Part shown: in pieces, positions 1,561 through 23,243 of the stretch
How the letters are laid out: each line of letters starts with the position of its first letter
How positions within the stretch are numbered: the stretch's first letter is position 1
The notes under the pieces: generated by a model
Told to the model about the DNA's origin: nothing
The model's input: the letters and a program-made list of their open reading frames with translations, nothing else
Databases searched by the model: none
Origin: Chiloscyllium plagiosum
Taxonomy: Eukaryota
Assembly (NCBI RefSeq): GCF_004010195.1
Contig: NC_057718.1
Span: forward strand, 100,001,186 to 100,025,233
Direction of reading: 5' to 3'
Length of the DNA stretch: 24,048 bases
Made by a program: the position numbers and the translations under genes

Positions 1561-1665
1561 GAATGTAGGAATAGTGATAAAGCATTTAAACACAGCTTGC
1601 TGGTAATTGATTTGAATGCAAAAGTTTAGCATAAGAGACTTGGTGTTTTTCACCAGAGTCTAGAC

Positions 1666-2508
1666 TGATTGATTGATTGGTTGTTGTCACGTGTTCCCAA
1701 ATACAGTGAAAAGTGTTGTTTTGTGTTCTATACAGGCAGATCATACTACACAGGGTAGCAGAGCAGAGCGCAGAATAGAGTGTTACAGCCACAGAGAAGG
1801 TGCAGGGAGAGAGAGAGAGAGAGATCAGCATTAACGTTTGAGAGGTCCATTCAAACATTTGATAACAGGCAGGGAAGAAGCTGTTCTTTAATCTGTTTGT
1901 ACGTGTTTTCAAACTTTTATATCTTCTGCTGATGGAAGAGGGTGGAAGAGAGTATAACCAGGGTGGAGGGGTCTTTGATAATGTTGGTTGCTTTCCTGAG
2001 ACAGCAGGGAGTGTAGATGGAGTCAATGGATGGGAGGCTGGTTTGTGTGATGGACTAGGCTGTGTTCACAGCTCTCTGTAATTTCTTATGGTCTTGGGAA
2101 GGACAGTTCCCATACCAAGCTGTGATGCATTCAGATAGGATGCTTTCTGTGGTGCATCTATAAAAATTGGTAAGAGTCTTTGTGGACATGTCAACTTTCC
2201 TTAGCTTCCTGAGGAAGTTAGAGACATTGTTGTGCTTTCTTGAACATTGCTTCAATGTGGGTGGACCAGGACAGATTGTTGGTGAGCATCACTCCCAGGG
2301 ACTTGATGCTCTTGACCATTTCCACCTCAGTCCCATTGATACAGACGGGTGTGTCCTCCACTCCCCTTCCTGAAGTCAATGACCAGCTCCTTCGCTTTGC
2401 TGATGTTGATGGAGAGATGGTTGTCTTTACACCATGCTGATAAACACTCAATCTCTTCCTGTCTCATCGTTGTCTGAGATACAACCTACAACAGTGGTGT
2501 TATCAGCA
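1666..2508 (-). mobile_element. Rex1/Babar-type LINE 3' fragment (RT C-terminal half, frameshifted)
   Basis: Successive minus frames read ADNTTVVGCISDNDET (decayed FADDTTVVG), CINGTEVEMV..LGVMLTNNLSWSTHI, FLRKLRK..LTNFYRCTTESILSECITAWYGNC and RRYKSLKTRTNRLKNSFFP. The tail is (ATCA)n, seen as (TGAT)3 at 1666-1677. Confidence 0.85.
1807..1824. repeat. (GA)9 microsatellite inside the Rex1 3' UTR
   Basis: Read directly from the sequence. Confidence 0.95.
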
Positions 2509-2560
2509 CCACCATCAGGGGTAGCTGAGCATATCTTGTGAAATTTTGGAAGAGAAACCT

Positions 2561-4730: not shown

Positions 4731-5539
4731 CTCCTCTTCCCCTTGCACTAATACATGTGGTCTTCCATCTTACTGGAATCTTCTGTATGGGGACCAAGGA
4801 AAGAAACAACTTCTTTAAGTACCTGCTTAAGAATATGGGCTTGGCTTCCGGGAGCAGGGAGCAGATGGAACCAGGGAAAATGGCAAAGATGAAGATCAGT
4901 CTGTAACAGTAACAACTGCAGAATGGATGGACGGTGACAATTGGAAAGCAGCTATCATCAGGGTCCCAGTGACTTACAAGCCCTGTTGTCAATCTGCAAA
5001 GTTCTATTACCTTTAAGTTTCAGTGTTAAGTATATTTTAGCATTGATTACTGTCAGAGAAAATGGGATGGAATTGGATTTTCTTTTGCTAATTGGCTTCA
5101 CCCAAGGTTAATATGTTGCCATGTAAATCAATCACATGCTAAAGAAGCCTCTCTCGAGCCACATTAAAAGCAATCAGGGTAGGCTTTTGACAGAGACAAT
5201 GCCGTGATAAAATCTGACCTTTTCATACTGTCAGATTGCGTCTGTGGTGGATGATGAGAGCTTTGTCCAAGACAGAAGACTATCTGTCATCTACTCTGCA
5301 ACGTACCAATTAACAAATGGGGTATTTTCCCAGGCAGTGTTCTGTAGTTTATACAGCTGTAATATCTCCTGTGCGAACTGCAATGGTATCGTCACTGGTG
5401 GCAGATAGCCAGCTACAGGCATATGACAATTAAATTCAAGGGTTGCATGGCATTTAGACAAAGCAAAGGAAAACTGTTACAGAAACTGTTGTTTCCCAGT
5501 CAATCGATTTCCACAATATTACAATTGCTTACTCTAGGC

Positions 5540-6826: not shown

Positions 6827-7159
6827 TAGAATCTCTACATTTTGGAAACAGGTCCTTTGGCCCAAAAAGTCCACACTGACCCTCCAAAGATTATCCCATC
6901 CAAACCAACTCCCCAACCCTATCCTACTCTCTATAATTACCTCTGAGTAATGCACCTAATCTACACATCCCTGAACACTATGGGCAGTTTAGCATGGCCA
7001 ATCCACCTAACCTGCACATCTTTGGATTGTAGGAGGAAACCCACGCAGACACGGGGGAAACATGCAAACTCCACACAGACAGTCACTCGAGGCTGGAATT
7101 GAACCCAGGTCCCTAGTGCTGGGAGGCAGCAGTGCTAACCACTGAACCACCGTGACACC
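6827..7159 (-). mobile_element. HE1-like V-SINE, near full length
   Basis: tRNA-like head with B box GGTTCAATTCC on the minus strand, conserved body and CR1-like tail. Confidence 0.92.
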
Positions 7160-7875
7160 TCATGTCACCAGGTTATAGTCCACCTCCATATGATCCTCCT
7201 ATCAAGTGAGAAAACAAATGAACATGTACCAAACATCTCACTGACGTCAATTCTTCCATTCAGGATCACATGGAATCGACTCTGGGATTCTCAATCTGTA
7301 GGATTTCTGAAGTTGATCCTACTTTCCCAATTTAAGGATGGCCCCCAATCTCAGAGAGGACAGAGGGAATCTCTTAAGGGCATCCTGAGGGCCCCACTGA
7401 ATAAGGGCACAATTGATGCCAGTTTGCGTGTTAACTTGCCACTAACTATGCCATGCAGTGACCCCTCATTACAACATAAACCTGACCGCGTAAACTCTGT
7501 CGCGGAGACCGAAGGAAAGCAAAAGGAGAAAGCACGTGGAAATCCACTTCAAAAGGAATCCCCAGTGCCTTTGGACAGCCCTGGCCCTCCCTGCCCAGAG
7601 ACCTGTGGCTCCAGAATTGGCCTCCAAGTCTCCTGAGGACACACACATATGTATTGTGAAGATCTGGCAAGTGTCATCCTCTGTTCAAGGGGCTGGTATC
7701 AATGACGATCTTGTTGTTACTGACCCACATATAGGATCATCAGGACAAGGTAGGCTATCCAACCCCTCAACTCTTTTACCACGATAATGTCTGATTTGAA
7801 ACTTAACTTCTTAGTCACTTTGATGAACAAGAACCTATCAATTTCAGATTTAAAACAAATGGTGAATAGACTCAA

Positions 7876-8745
7876 TTGAGCGCATATCTCCACCACTCTG
7901 AATTAGTTTCAGGATGGTGCAGGTGTGGTAGATGTTCATCACAGTCTGTCCACTCCAGGCCAGTGCCATCGTTTTTTCTATGTACATTTTGTCTTTTCCT
8001 CTTTCTCTTCTTCCTTTCTTCTTCGTCTTTGGGACTGAGCATTGTCGGCGGGGTGTTGGCTGGATCATTGGTGGTGTGGATCGGGACTCTTGGTGGTGGT
8101 AGGCCTGGACCCTGGACTGTGGTGTTGGCGGTACCCAGAATCTGGACTCCTGGTGGTGGTGGTAGGCCCTGAGCTTGGACTCCTATTGGTGGTAAGCCCA
8201 GAGCCTGGACTCCTGATGGTGGTGGTGCCCAGAGCCTGGACTCCTGGTAGTGGTGGTAGGCCTGGAGCCTGAACCCCTGGTGGTGATAGGCCCAGAGCCT
8301 GGATTCCTGATGATGGCGGTGCTCAGAGCGTGGACTCCTGATGGTGGTATGCCCAGAGCCTGGAGTCTTGGCAGCAGTGGCAGCGCCCTGAGTGGGAAGC
8401 CAGTAGACAGTAGGCCCAGAGCCTGGAGTCTTGGCAGCAGTAGCAGTGCCCGGAGCTAGGATTCTATCAGCAGTAGGCCCGGAGCCTGGAGTCTTAGTGG
8501 TGGCAGCAGCAGAGCTGGAGTCTCCTGGGGCATCAGTGTCATCATTACTGTCCCCAGAACGGGACACATTGAGGCCCAGAACATCTTGCAGAGACCTTTC
8601 AGAAGCTCTGGAGAAGAGCTTAAGACCCCAATTTGAGCAGAAGATGAACTCTTATTTAAGTAATTTTTTTGTATCTTTGTTGTAACTCAGACAAAGCACA
8701 TTTCACTATATCTTCAAGGTCTATGTGACGATAAATCATTCATTC
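7876..8745 (+). mobile_element. Putative non-autonomous composite retroelement: pyrimidine-rich leader, VNTR and Rex1-like 3' tail
   Basis: The 3' end TTTCACTATATC..TATGTGACGATAAATCATTCATTC matches the Rex1 tails at 1666-1718 and 22533-22578 (reverse complements). Possible TSD ACTCAA at 7870-7875 and 8746-8751. Confidence 0.6.
8084..8526. repeat. Minisatellite/VNTR of about 14 units of 29-33 bp
   Basis: Unit consensus is approximately GGACTCCTGGTGGTGGTAGGCCCAGAGCCT. The distal units alternate as a dimer of about 63 bp. Confidence 0.95.
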
Positions 8746-9248
8746 ACTCAAGATTATTGCCCTTATCGAAGCACTCTTGCTCGACTGATATTCTGTAAGC
8801 AAGAAGTCTCAGAAAAAAATCTTTTTAAGACACAGGAGGTTCCAGGCCAGGCCATGTCTATCAATCTGCTCAGAAAACTCTGCTCACATCTTAACAGCTC
8901 TGCAAACAATCCACAACAGCAAAGTCACACCAGCACATTCTAAATCAAGCAACAATATTCCAAATAAAACAAACTTACAATATTCTTTCTAAGAAAAAAT
9001 GTCAATCCACCCTATCTCCCAATGTCTTTGAAAGAATTCTGGATCCCAATTAATATCTTTACCAGTTCTTCCTAGGGCCACACTCTATTTCTGTACTCGG
9101 CTTTGATGAAATCTGTCATATTGTTTCCAGACAGGCTAATAAATGAGGGAAACATATTATTGCAATCGACCTCAGTGAAGGTGGCAATTAACAATTGATT
9201 GAGGATACAGTGAACAGAATACTCCCCAGAATATCCTGTTCCATTGCT

Positions 9249-9680
9249 ACCTGACAAAGGAGCAGCTAGTACTTCCAAATAAACCTGTTGGACTATAACC
9301 TGTTTTTTATTAGATTACATTACAATGTGGAAACAGGCCCTTCGGCCCAACAAGTCCACACCGACCCGCCGAAGCGCAACCCACCCATACCCCTACATTT
9401 ACCCCTTACCTAACACTACGGGCAATTTAGCATGGCCAATTCACCTGACCCTGCACATCTTTGGACTGTGGGAGGAAACCGGAGCACCCGGAGGAAACCC
9501 ACGCAGATGCGGGGAGAACATGCAAACTCCACACAGTCAGTCGCCTGAGGCGGGAATTGAACCCGGGTCTCTGGCGCTGTGAGGCAACAGTGCTAACCAC
9601 TGTGCCACCATGCCGCCCACACTGGTGTTGCGTGATTTTTAACTTTGTCCACCTCAGTCCGAAACCGGCTCCTCCACATC
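9249..9680 (+). mobile_element. Penelope-like family A terminal fragment split by an HE1 SINE (9249-9302 and 9622-9680)
   Basis: GACTATAACCTG | CTGGTGTTGCGTGATTTTTAAC rejoins the family A sequence. The hammerhead is internally deleted (GGAGCAGCTAGT). Loose flanking duplication AGAATA...CATTGCT at 9228-9248 and 9681-9700. Confidence 0.85.
9304..9618 (-). mobile_element. Full-length, CpG-rich HE1-like V-SINE
   Basis: A box TGGCACAGTGG (9597-9607), B box GGTTCAATTCC (9553-9563), and a CR1-shared tail with a GGCC-GAAG-GGCC hairpin. Confidence 0.95.
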
Positions 9681-14391: not shown

Positions 14392-14841
14392 TATATCAGA
14401 GGTAAATCCTTTTGAGGGAAACCATGGAACTTCGATTTCGCTGACAGAGGATTTTTTTTTTGTTTTAATCCTCTTTCCCTTTCTCATTATGTCTGGGGGA
14501 ATCATCAGTATCTCTGAGGGATGGTCCTCCAAGGGGGTGAGTACTCATTAGTTTCCCCAAAAGCTGACATAACAATATTATTAAGGCAGTAATAACAAGC
14601 TGTGAAGAAGAAATATAAGGCAGAATCCAGATGCCGGTTGGTCAAATGCTTGGTAGATGTAGTGAAAGGTGATGTGGATACACAATAAAAAGCTTATGAA
14701 TAATGGATAGATCCAGAAGTAGATTTTGCTGTGAATATTGTAATTGGGTAAATCAAGTATAAGTGATGTCTTTTTCTGCCTGAGACTGATACAGTTCACA
14801 TCGGCTGTCGCAGTTTCCCAAATAAAACACTCAAATGTGAC

Positions 14842-15762: not shown

Positions 15763-16055
15763 CTCCACTCCGTTCACACATCCCACCTTCACAATCATGG
15801 CCCACTCTATATGCAATGGGTTCCCCTGCCCTCTCAATAAATACCTCCCAGAATCAGCTTGGCTTCCCATATCTGCATTCAAAAACCCTCTCTTTGACCT
15901 TACCCCCATATGAAAAAAGCCTGGAATAAAAGGCTAGTCTAATGCTACGATCAATCGTTGTAAAGATCCAACTGATTAGCGAGTTTTAAAGAAGAGTTGT
16001 AGCTCAGGTTGAGGATCTGGATGTCGGTTTGCTCGCTGAGCTGGAAGGTTCGCTT

Positions 16056-16095
16056 TCAGACATTTCGTTACCATACGAGGTAACATCGTCAGTGA
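16056..16095 (-). ncRNA. Minimal hammerhead motif (PLE family B), core intact
   Basis: Minus strand: TCA-CTGACGA-T-GTTACC-TCGTAT-GGTAAC-GAAA-T-GTC-TGA. Perfect 6-bp helix II, GUC triplet, helix I TCA/TGA. Confidence 0.8.
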
Positions 16096-16701
16096 GCCTC
16101 CGCATGAAGCACTGCTGATGTTTCCTGTTTTCTATTTATATGTTTGGGTTTATGTGGGTTGGTGATGTCATTTCCTATGGTGATGTCATTTCCTGTTCTT
16201 TTTCTCAGGGTGTGGTAAATGGGATCCATTTACACCCACCAACACACTAAAGCAGCAGCTAATGAACTTGAAAGACTCTATACAGACAACAAGCAAAACT
16301 AATATCATTTACAAAATACCGTGCAAGGGCTGTAACAAACACCACACTGGACAAACAGGCAGAAAACTAGCCACCAGGATACATGAACATCAACTAGCCA
16401 CAAAACCACATGACCCTCTCTCACTAGTATCTTTACATAGAGATAAGGAAGGACACCACTTCGACTGGGACAACACATCCTGCCTAGGACAAGCCAAACA
16501 GATACACGCACGAGAATTCCTCGAAGCATGGCTTTCCAACTGGAACTCTATCAACAAGCGCATTGACTTGGACCCCAATTATCACCCCCTGAGAAAAAGA
16601 ACAGGAAATGATATCACCATAGGAAATGACATCACCAGCCCAAAGAAACCCAAACATACAAATAGAAAGCAGGAAACATCAGCAGTGCTTCGTCTAGAGG
16701 C

Positions 16702-16741
16702 TCACTGGAGATGTTACCTAGTATGGTGACGAAACGTCTGA
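16702..16741 (+). ncRNA. Hammerhead motif (PLE family B), core mutated
   Basis: TCA-CTGGAGA-T-GTTACC-TAGTAT-GGTGAC-GAAA-C-GTC-TGA. Conserved A6 is changed to G; the palindromic ACGT is retained. Confidence 0.65.
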
Positions 16742-16847
16742 AAATAAACCTTCCAGCTCAGCGAGCAAACCTACATCCATATCCAACTGATTCACTAATG
16801 GCCTTTAGGGAAGCTAATCTACTGTCCTTATCCTGTCTGACCTACAT

Positions 16848-22523: not shown

Positions 22524-22532
22524 AATCAAACC

Positions 22533-22645
22533 TTGATTTGATTTATTGTCGTCACATGTACTAAGTACAGTGAAAAGGTTCATTTTGATAGCAGTGAGGG
22601 CAAGTTACAACAAGCAAGGATGTTTAGATCATAAGGGTGCTTAGA
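22533..22645 (-). mobile_element. Rex1-type 3' tail fragment
   Basis: TTGATTTGATTTATTGTCGTCACATGTACTAAGTACAGTGAAAAG is similar to 1669-1713. Confidence 0.65.
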
Positions 22646-22657
22646 AGTCAAAATTAT

Positions 22658-23243
22658 AAGTCTGTAAGTTAGTTCGCTGAGCTGGAAGGTTTATTTTCAG
22701 ACGTTTTGTCACCATGACTAGGTAGCATCATCAGTGAGCATGTCCGATGAAGCGCTGGTGGTATGTCCCACTACTCTATTTATAGGTTTTGGTTTCTTAA
22801 GATGGGTGATAGGATACATGAACACCAACTGACCATCGAAAGACATGACCCACTCTCACTAGTTTCTATATATACAGACAAACAAGGACACCACTTTGAC
22901 TGGGACAACACACACATCCTGGGACAGGCAAAACAAGGGACATGCATGAGAATTCCTGGAGGCCTGGCCATTCTAACCAGAACTCCATCAATAAACACAT
23001 CAATTTAGATCCTATCGACTTTCCTTTAAAAAAAGCAGAATCGGAAATGATATCACCCACCTTAAGAAACCAAGACCTATCAGTAGAGAGGCGGAACATA
23101 CCACCAGCGCTTCACCAGAGACTCTCACTGATGATGTTACCTAATCATGGTGACGAAACATCTGAAAACAAATCTTCCAGCTCAGCGAGCTAACTTACAG
23201 ACGTATCATCAACCTGAGCTGCAAATCTTCTCAAAAAATCGCG
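22658..23243 (+). mobile_element. Penelope-like family B element with inverted arms
   Basis: RIHEHQLTIERHDPLSLVS...GHHFDWDNTHILGQAKQ is homologous to the ORF at 16262. Inverted arms at 22660-22810 and 23052-23202. TSD AGTCAAAATTAT at 22646-22657 and AGACAAAATTAT at 23244-23255. Confidence 0.92.
23125..23165 (+). ncRNA. Minimal hammerhead motif (PLE family B), core intact
   Basis: TCA-CTGATGA(23128-23134)-T-GTTACC-TAATCAT-GGTGAC-GAAA-C-ATC-TGA, with an AUC triplet. The antisense copy at about 22697-22737 has GAAA mutated to AAAA. Confidence 0.75.

What the first reader, a model, noticed from the sequence alone, without database searches (positions are those of the whole stretch)
7876..8745. 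SVA-like composite element: leader, VNTR and a tail borrowed from a Rex1 LINE
Seen: a leader of about 200 bp with a pyrimidine tract, about 14 GC-rich units of roughly 30 bp, a linker, and a 3' end (TTTCACT.TA...TGTGAC.ATAAATCATTCATTC) matching the tail of the Rex1/Babar LINE at 1666-1718. I see no Pol III A/B boxes and no RT coding. There is a weak 6-bp TSD (ACTCAA). Known: non-autonomous elements hijack LINEs through shared 3' tails, and VNTR-cored composites are best known from hominoid SVA/LAVA. Inference: a Rex1-mobilised, VNTR-containing non-autonomous family in sharks, possibly uncharacterised.
Basis: partly seen in the sequence, partly recalled or inferred. Interest (0 to 1): 0.7.

Follow-up and report, generated by a model that had tools for sequence, protein, structure and literature searches.

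The report
Minisatellite-cored, LINE-tailed shark repeat family
This is an old, dead copy of a dispersed shark repeat in which a variable GC-rich minisatellite is joined to the tail end of a LINE jumping gene, probably a passenger that the LINE copied around the genome, although its true start and its independence from the LINE are not yet shown.

Summary
The core observation holds: 14 units of 29-33 nt (8081-8514), a linker, and a 3' end matching two LINE-type tails in the window (1/1000 and 2/1000 shuffles). Laying public runs shows a dispersed family: 75-80 contigs per DNA run carry a variant at 8637, and other contigs join VNTR to linker and tail. A whale-shark gene call over another copy reads VNTR, linker and tail in that order. 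The VNTR is truly variable: a conspecific allele is 210 nt shorter. The leader 7870-7939 is single-copy, so the 5' end is undefined. The ACTCAA duplication is chance-level (99 of 429 windows) and reads ACTCAG in two related species. No empty site: both related species carry the insertion. Best reading: an old, CpG-decayed copy, probably 5'-truncated, of a non-coding retroposon mobilised by a Rex1/Babar-type LINE (0.6). The long 3' UTR of an unseen autonomous LINE is not excluded (0.28). It is not an SVA-family member; EhSINE1 is the closer analogue. Dfam and Repbase could not be checked.

The parts
8081..8529 (+). VNTR: 14 units of 29-33 nt plus a half unit; higher-order 63- and 94-nt blocks; GGTGG-type cores in the 5' part and GGCAG/AGCAG-type cores in the 3' part, read as two outcomes of CpG decay of a GGCGG core
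   Evidence: CpG o/e 0.17, TpG 1.52; 94-nt blocks 80/94 alike; CpG-rich loose end of other copies before 8408; shorter alleles in run X7 (net 210 nt) and in organism B
8530..8689 (+). Non-repetitive linker; the most abundant part of the family
   Evidence: summed depth in bin 8640-8709 is 3876/734/3001 against single-copy flank depth of about 15/10/22-32; 75, 80 and 80 contigs carry the other letter at 8637
8689..8690 (+). Place where most family members carry about 20 more bases (beginning AAATGGYGC) that this copy lacks
   Evidence: loose ends behind 8689 in 19, 39 and 36 contigs and 7 RNA reads; same stretch read as TKNGAGFW in P0001
8690..8749 (+). LINE-type 3' tail: TCAC...GTGA stem with a one-base bulge, ATAAA, then short ATTC repeats
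   Evidence: same hairpin in 3 of 3 tails, none significant alone (z 0.31, 0.85, -1.10); depth falls to near background in bin 8780-8849
7966..8080 (+). Pyrimidine tract and transition to the VNTR; membership uncertain
   Evidence: joints 8031 to 8408 (one contig in each of 3 runs, sides 18-26 nt) and 8038 to 8623 (2 runs, sides 24-33 nt); but at 8047 only 0, 0 and 1 other contigs align, and some tract matches have unrelated loose ends
7876..7965 (.). First part of the proposed leader: single-copy at 80% likeness, probably flank; may continue the CR1 remnant on the minus strand
   Evidence: bin 7870-7939 depth 0.45/11.2/21.5; profile hit 7898-7828, E 0.18; not significant alone
7730..7867 (-). 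Left flank: decayed 3' end of a CR1-type LINE (family name recalled)
   Evidence: 0 of 300 shuffles reach the score against 2 of 12 window copies; depth peak in bin 7800-7869
8746..8751 (+). ACTCAA, proposed right TSD copy (left copy 7870-7875); not accepted, may be a decayed tail repeat unit
1662..2520 (-). 5'-truncated LINE with end of ORF2 (PF09004 domain, NSFFP motif at 1885) and a short 3' UTR (about 200 nt after that motif) without VNTR; candidate partner type (Rex1/Babar by recall)
   Evidence: (PF09004, E 9e-05)
22530..22600 (-). Second, isolated tail of the same type
   Evidence: score 58 to the LINE tail, 0 of 1000 shuffles
7872..8651 (-). Stop-free frame of 259 codons across linker, VNTR and leader; no homologue; probably not a gene

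Best explanation
The segment from about 8040-8080 to 8749 is an old, fixed, methylation-decayed copy of a dispersed non-coding retroposon family of sharks, built as GC-rich VNTR, then a linker of about 160-180 nt, then a LINE-type 3' hairpin and microsatellite tail. Mechanism: a transcript without Pol III boxes (probably Pol II; inferred) ends in the tail; the ORF2 protein of a Rex1/Babar-type LINE recognises the shared last 55 nt in trans and copies the RNA by target-primed reverse transcription (inferred from established LINE/SINE biology); frequent 5' truncation leaves copies rich in linker and tail and poorer in VNTR (depth gradient shown, cause inferred); after insertion the VNTR keeps gaining and losing units at the DNA level (shown at this locus). 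Shown: family, linkage, shared tail, VNTR variability, age. Inferred: non-autonomy, the partner's clade, the promoter. The stretch 7876-7965 is probably flank.
For:: 397, 478 and 431 contigs laid in 3 DNA runs of 3 organisms (these totals include CR1 and low-complexity matches); depth high over 8080-8746, peak in the linker, sharp drop after the tail; 75-80 contigs per run at 8637. Of 15 joints shown (236 not shown), 9 link a VNTR place to linker or tail in other contigs (8110-8705, 8115-8693, 8246-8569, 8283-8561, 8303-8500, 8435-8618, 8536-8618 and the two tract joints counted apart make the rest; strictly VNTR-to-3' joints number 6); the single hit among 1.84 billion representatives is a whale-shark ab initio gene call (cluster of 1) reading VNTR, linker, the 20-nt motif and tail in order; tail shared only over the last 55 nt, with the same stem in 3 of 3 tails and one G-C to A-U swap in this element, as expected for borrowing of a recognition signal; the LINE in the window has a short UTR without VNTR. 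RNA run: 28 reads, all under 90% alike (other copies), first mate on the minus strand over linker and tail, 3 reads with poly(A) directly behind 8746. Orthologous copy present in organisms B and C at 3.6-5% difference; most paralogues under 90% alike (227/397, 301/478, 282/431).
Against: The family's 5' end was not seen, so an RT-coding region upstream of the VNTR in full-length members is not excluded. No credible TSD. The tail match is short (score 38) and weaker than that between the two other tails (58), so the exact partner subfamily is not in the window. The hairpin is not significant against shuffles for any single tail and rests on 3 sequences. The RNA evidence is 3 poly(A) reads from about 2% of one run and may be internal priming. 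Summed contig depth is not a copy number.
Confidence: 0.6

Rival explanations
1. The VNTR, linker and tail are the unusually long 3' UTR of an autonomous Rex1/Babar-type LINE subfamily; this copy is a 5'-truncated insertion that stopped in or just before the VNTR, and the leader is flank.
For: Depth falls towards the 5' side and almost no other contig aligns at 8047 or 7870-7939, as for truncated LINE copies; no family-wide 5' end or TSD was found.
Against: The one LINE with this tail type in the window has a short UTR that shares nothing with the linker (889 of 1000 shuffles as good). At two other loci a pyrimidine-tract piece is joined to VNTR or linker, hinting at a non-coding 5' part. No RT-like sequence within 880 nt upstream of the VNTR here.
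Confidence: 0.28
2. The minus-strand frame 8651-7872 (259 codons), which follows an acceptor-like pyrimidine run near 8610, is an exonised or otherwise translated sequence, so this copy has been co-opted as coding DNA.
For: Longest stop-free frame of 101 in the window; reached by 5, 11 and 1 of 3000 shuffles under three nulls; the 210-nt allele is a multiple of three; 3 of the 5 listed orthologue differences in 7875-8047 are synonymous.
Against: No match among 8000 scored candidates, in Pfam, the PDB or the Atlas (last 75 residues). The nulls break up the pyrimidine tract, which cannot hold a stop on the minus strand, so they overstate the surprise, and the frame was picked after the fact. In organism B the net loss over the region appears to be 92 nt and the likely orthologous contig in C loses 8 nt in 8227-8654, neither a multiple of three, though the gap places were not all shown. 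Only 40 of 272 differences were listed.
Confidence: 0.06
3. Chance neighbours: a locally grown minisatellite beside an unrelated tail fragment.
For: No TSD; the window is dense with repeat fragments.
Against: VNTR-to-linker/tail joints in other contigs of all 3 organisms and the same order in the whale-shark copy.
Confidence: 0.03

Closest known systems
EhSINE1 of Entamoeba histolytica (Huntley et al. [quoted passage not shown]
   Same: Non-coding retroposon that does not meet the tRNA/7SL plus A/B-box definition, carries a variable number of internal repeats of about 26-27 nt, and shares only about 70 bp at the 3' end with its partner LINE.
   Different: 1-4 repeats against 14 or more here; TSDs and recent mobility shown there; different LINE clade and host; no sequence relationship tested or expected.
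Hominoid VNTR composites SVA, LAVA, PVA, FVA (Lupan et al. 2015, PMC4432496, abstract and Background read; Kojima 2018, PMC5753468, passages)
   Same: Central GC-rich VNTR of 30-50 bp units with non-random unit order, remodelled at the DNA level; non-autonomous; possibly a pyrimidine-rich 5' stretch.
   Different: SVA-type elements have a 5' CT-hexamer/Alu-like domain, 3' parts taken from other elements or genes, are moved by L1 and have TSDs. Here the 3' end is a sequence-specific LINE tail, no Alu-like or other donor is identified for the 5' part or linker, no TSD, and the family is old.
SINE2-5_NV / Rex1-24_NV of Nematostella (table in PMC3747384, passages)
   Same: The one Rex1-tailed non-autonomous partner listed in that review; shows that Rex1 can mobilise passengers through a shared tail.
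   Different: tRNA-derived head; no VNTR stated. The shark pairs listed there (HE1/HER1, SacSINE1, SINE2-1_CM) and in PMC5499810 (passages; 'rex' occurs 0 times) are tRNA SINEs with CR1 or L2 tails.
Bipartite non-autonomous LINEs (Kojima 2018, PMC5786205, passages and section 23 read)
   Same: Non-coding, probably Pol II-transcribed passengers with a LINE 3' end.
   Different: Reported there only from RTE, Ingi, Vingi and R2; they keep the LINE's 5' UTR. Whether VNTR or linker derive from a Rex1 5' region could not be tested.

Membership tests
SVA/LAVA VNTR composites | Central VNTR of 30-50 bp GC-rich units, variable in number | tested here: met
   14 units of 29-33 nt, 61% GC; alleles 210 nt and at least 64 nt shorter
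SVA/LAVA VNTR composites | Shared 5' CT-hexamer repeat and Alu-like domain | tested here: not met
   No hexamer array by TRF; no 7SL/SRP or other Rfam match above chance in 7600-8900; 7870-7939 single-copy
SVA/LAVA VNTR composites | L1-type 3' end: poly(A) tail and TSD | tested here: not met
   Genomic copy ends in a hairpin plus ATTC repeats; TSD at chance level and broken in two orthologues
SINE (Pol III, small-RNA head) | tRNA/5S/7SL-derived head with A and B boxes | tested here: inconclusive
   None in this copy, but the family's 5' end is undefined, so a head in full-length members is not excluded
LINE-tail-dependent non-autonomous retroposon | Dispersed copies with linked internal parts | tested here: met
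   Depth, joints and 75-80 contigs per run; whale-shark copy
LINE-tail-dependent non-autonomous retroposon | 3' end shared with a LINE and limited to the terminus | tested here: met
LINE-tail-dependent non-autonomous retroposon | Full-length members lack RT coding | not testable with these tools
   No RT in this copy; no genome held; upstream letters of other copies not shown
LINE-tail-dependent non-autonomous retroposon | Insertion hallmark: TSD or empty site | tested here: inconclusive
   No credible TSD; both related organisms carry the insertion, so no empty site was available
Rex1/Babar LINE clade (partner) | RT phylogeny places the partner in Rex1/Babar | not tested
   Only the ORF2 end is present (PF09004); the link of this domain and tail to Rex1/Babar is recalled; paper searches did not supply it

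The most novel reading that the evidence does not exclude
Sharks independently evolved an SVA-like architecture: a Pol II-transcribed, non-autonomous retroposon with a pyrimidine-rich 5' segment, a CpG-rich VNTR core and a stringent Rex1/Babar tail, which scattered hundreds of still length-polymorphic minisatellites and poly(A) signals through the genome before the sampled species split. VNTR-cored retroposons would then not be a hominoid/L1 speciality among vertebrates.
Probability: 0.3. Interest if true: 0.65.

Novelty: new variant of a known kind. Interest (0 to 1): 0.4.

Why it matters
If non-autonomy holds, it adds a vertebrate, non-L1 example of a VNTR-cored retroposon and a Rex1-type passenger without a small-RNA head, which the reviews read here do not list. 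It would let one ask whether a GC-rich VNTR is repeatedly recruited because it helps transcription or mobilisation, as reported for LAVA. It also gives a common origin for dispersed, polymorphic minisatellites in these sharks and explains spurious gene calls such as P0001. If it is a LINE 3' UTR, it is an annotation detail.

Tried and rejected
Exact-motif scans: metagenome contigs gave 11 loci, none with any BLASTN match to the window at E 0.1 (chance); viral contigs and genome contigs gave 0. The tail pattern matched only the element it was drawn from and is uninformative. Protein searches: 259-aa minus frame, none of 8000 candidates; 92-aa plus frame against longer proteins, none of 4745; P0001 found only itself among 649; Atlas gave only low scores; so no further copies with 5' sequence were obtained. 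Rfam: 6 matches, all E 1.2 or worse. No indexed RNA holder was listed for this exact copy; not used as evidence. Alternative TSDs: nothing longer than 6 nt for 3' ends 8736-8765 within 7000-8100. Continuation of the CR1 remnant into the leader: suggestive, best 7 of 300 shuffles among 12 copies tried, not accepted as shown. Host-gene exons: a splice-pattern scan gave many candidates; the two or three tested had no Pfam or PDB match, so host gene and strand are unknown. Seven look-ups of earlier scan findings showed nothing on this family. Ten paper searches listed no title or abstract start describing a shark Rex1-tailed VNTR element; this library lacks most subscription papers and Repbase Reports.

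Full report
What is in the sequence. The segment 8081-8514 holds 14 units of 29-33 nt, followed by a half unit to 8529. TRF scores it at period 30 (250) and higher at period 94 (334), and two 94-nt blocks agree at 80 of 94 positions. The array is 61% GC with CpG o/e 0.17 and TpG o/e 1.52; 5' units have GGTGG cores and 3' units GGCAG/AGCAG cores. A loose-end consensus of 11 contigs from other copies is CpG-rich, so I infer a GGCGG core that decayed by methylation. A pyrimidine tract lies at about 7966-8030. No RT was found: 27 peptides from the window's LINE and Penelope-type fragments gave one 13-residue hit, in the left flank, and Pfam was blank. Recalled A/B-box patterns gave chance-level hits only, and Rfam nothing better than E 1.2.

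The tail. The last 59 nt align with the minus-strand LINE tail at 1660-1730 (score 38, 2 of 1000 shuffles) and equally with a second tail at 22530-22600 (38, 1 of 1000); these are the two best of 1192 tiles. The two other tails resemble each other more (58, 0 of 1000). The linker has no likeness to the LINE's UTR (889 of 1000). All three tails fold the same TCAC/GTGA stem with a one-base bulge, and one pair is G-C in two and A-U in the element; no single fold beats its shuffles, and n is 3. The LINE at 1662-2520 carries PF09004 (E 9e-05) and a short UTR without VNTR. Calling it Rex1/Babar is my recall; no call gave that label.

Is it a family? No genome is held. Twenty-four runs were listed, and I laid four on 7170-9250 at 80% likeness: contigs of organism A (X7, another sample than the best holder), B (X11) and C (X20), and raw poly(A) RNA reads of A (X21). 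397, 478 and 431 contigs were laid, including matches to the CR1 remnant and the pyrimidine tract. Summed depth is at single-copy level in the flanks (about 5-15, 10, 22-32), raised over the VNTR (169-814, 56-457, 279-1344), peaks in bin 8640-8709 (3876, 734, 3001) and returns to near background after the tail. At 8637, 75, 80 and 80 contigs carry the other letter. Depth is not a copy number; I read this as at least about 80 and probably some hundreds of copies. Of 15 joints shown (236 not shown), six link a VNTR place to linker or tail in other contigs (8110-8705, 8115-8693, 8246-8569, 8283-8561, 8435-8618, and 8303-8500 at the VNTR's 3' end). Behind 8689, 19, 39 and 36 contigs and 7 RNA reads continue with about 20 bases that this copy lacks before rejoining the tail. 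Independently, the only hit for the 92-codon plus frame among 1.84 billion representatives (E 3.8e-04) is a whale-shark ab initio gene call in a cluster of one, which reads VNTR, linker, that motif and the tail in order and aligns to about 8081-8718 of the window. Linkage of VNTR, linker and tail is therefore shown.

Variability and age. X7 record 17 joins 8188 to 8392 with 0 and 1 other letters and is 210 nt shorter over 8022-8652, so the VNTR differs within organism A. X11 record 1 spans both flanks and the element, with a net 64-nt skip at 8402-8469 and 28 more gap letters at places not shown; 68 other letters in about 1,900. In C, records 8 and 15 cross both ends of the element at 4-5% difference. 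There is no empty site: the insertion predates the three organisms. Most laid contigs are under 90% alike (227/397, 301/478, 282/431), so the family is old relative to this copy.

What fails. Bin 7870-7939 has depth 0.45, 11.2 and 21.5, the locus itself and nothing more, and at 8047 only 0, 0 and 1 other contigs align. The left flank 7730-7867 is a CR1-type 3' remnant on the minus strand (0 of 300 shuffles against 2 of 12 copies); it may run on across 7876 (profile hit 7898-7828, E 0.18), which is not significant. The raised depth at 7940-8079 is largely low-complexity matching, with unrelated loose ends at 7996 and 8031. Two joints, 8031-8408 (one contig in each of 3 runs) and 8038-8623 (2 runs), with short sides of 18-33 nt, hint that the pyrimidine tract precedes the VNTR at other loci. 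The TSD is not credible: ACTCAA occurs in 99 of 429 other 400-nt windows, some 6-mer starting at 8742-8752 in 280 of 429, and 7875 is G in B and C. The 5' boundary is most likely between about 7966 and 8080.

RNA. From about 2% of one single-cell run, 28 reads were laid, all under 90% alike, so from other copies. Over linker and tail the first mate lies on the minus strand, which in most libraries means plus-strand RNA, and 3 reads carry poly(A) directly behind 8746. This fits transcription in the element's sense and ending at the tail, but it is 3 reads and could be internal priming.

Mechanism and rivals. Best reading (0.6): a non-coding passenger whose last 55 nt are recognised in trans by a Rex1/Babar-type ORF2 protein and copied by target-primed reverse transcription, with 5' truncation and later VNTR remodelling in DNA. 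Family, linkage, shared tail, variability and age are shown; non-autonomy, partner clade and promoter are inferred. Main rival (0.28): a long 3' UTR of an autonomous subfamily; the letters upstream of the VNTR in other copies were not available. Minor rival (0.06): the 259-codon minus-strand frame is used. It is longer than 2995, 2989 and 2999 of 3000 shuffles under three nulls, and 3 of 5 listed orthologue differences in 7875-8047 are synonymous, but the nulls destroy the pyrimidine tract, no homologue exists in four searches, and net losses in B and C look out of frame.

Comparison with what is known. VNTR composites are described as hominoid-specific, L1-mobilised, with a 5' CT-hexamer/Alu-like domain (PMC4432496, abstract and Background; PMC5753468, passages). 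This element shares the VNTR and fails the other two tests, so it is not a member. EhSINE1, with 1-4 internal 26-27-nt repeats, no small-RNA head and about 70 bp shared with its LINE, works more alike (PMC2996970, abstract and one section). A Rex1-tailed tRNA SINE is listed for Nematostella, and the listed shark SINEs use CR1 or L2 tails (PMC3747384 and PMC5499810, passages). Bipartite non-autonomous LINEs were reported only from RTE, Ingi, Vingi and R2 (PMC5786205, section 23). PMC6274825 (passages) describes Rex1 as having a conserved 3' UTR followed by a variable oligonucleotide repeat; PMC9004415 (passages) reports Rex1/Babar in chimaera; PMC7245038 (passages) added nothing on Rex1. Ten searches (listings only) showed no description of this family, but Dfam and Repbase could not be consulted, and an unnamed consensus may well exist there.

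Verdict. New variant of a known kind; interest 0.4, up to 0.65 if a non-coding, pyrimidine-rich 5' end is confirmed.

Noticed in passing
window 8689/8690 (loose ends): The roughly 20 bases that most family members carry just before the tail begin AAAATGGCG, which resembles a YY1 binding core and the start of some fish Rex1 elements (both recalled, not tested). Gap counts in the orthologous contigs of B and C suggest they lack it too, so the loss is old.
   Followed up: partly
window 7872-8651 (-): Of 18 stop triplets on the minus strand, 16 lie in one frame, 2 in another and none in the third; an acceptor-like pyrimidine run before AG lies near 8610-8622, where this copy differs from the family majority at five listed places.
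   Followed up: partly
window 22530-22600 (-): Isolated second tail of the same type, with about 70 nt upstream that match neither the LINE UTR nor clearly the linker (330 of 1000 shuffles).
   Followed up: partly
window 14630-14700 (-): A third, weaker tail-like match (score 33, 1 of 1000 shuffles).
   Followed up: no
window 8862-8899: Short fragment of another abundant repeat in the right flank: depth peak in bin 8850-8919 and loose ends on both sides in 10 contigs of X20.
   Followed up: no
window 16013-16784 and 22653-23209: Two fold-back units with arms of 216 and 159 nt (89% and 86% complementary) around a Penelope-like coding remnant (family name recalled).
   Followed up: no
window 5294-5412 (-): Exon-like stretch between an AG and a GTACGT with a 39-codon open frame; no Pfam or PDB match.
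   Followed up: partly
window 9116: A 14-nt insertion shared by organisms B and C relative to the window, so a deletion in the lineage of A.
   Followed up: no
P0001 (EukProt Rhincodon typus g34813.t1): A 174-residue predicted protein that appears to be a spurious gene call over a copy of this repeat.
   Followed up: yes
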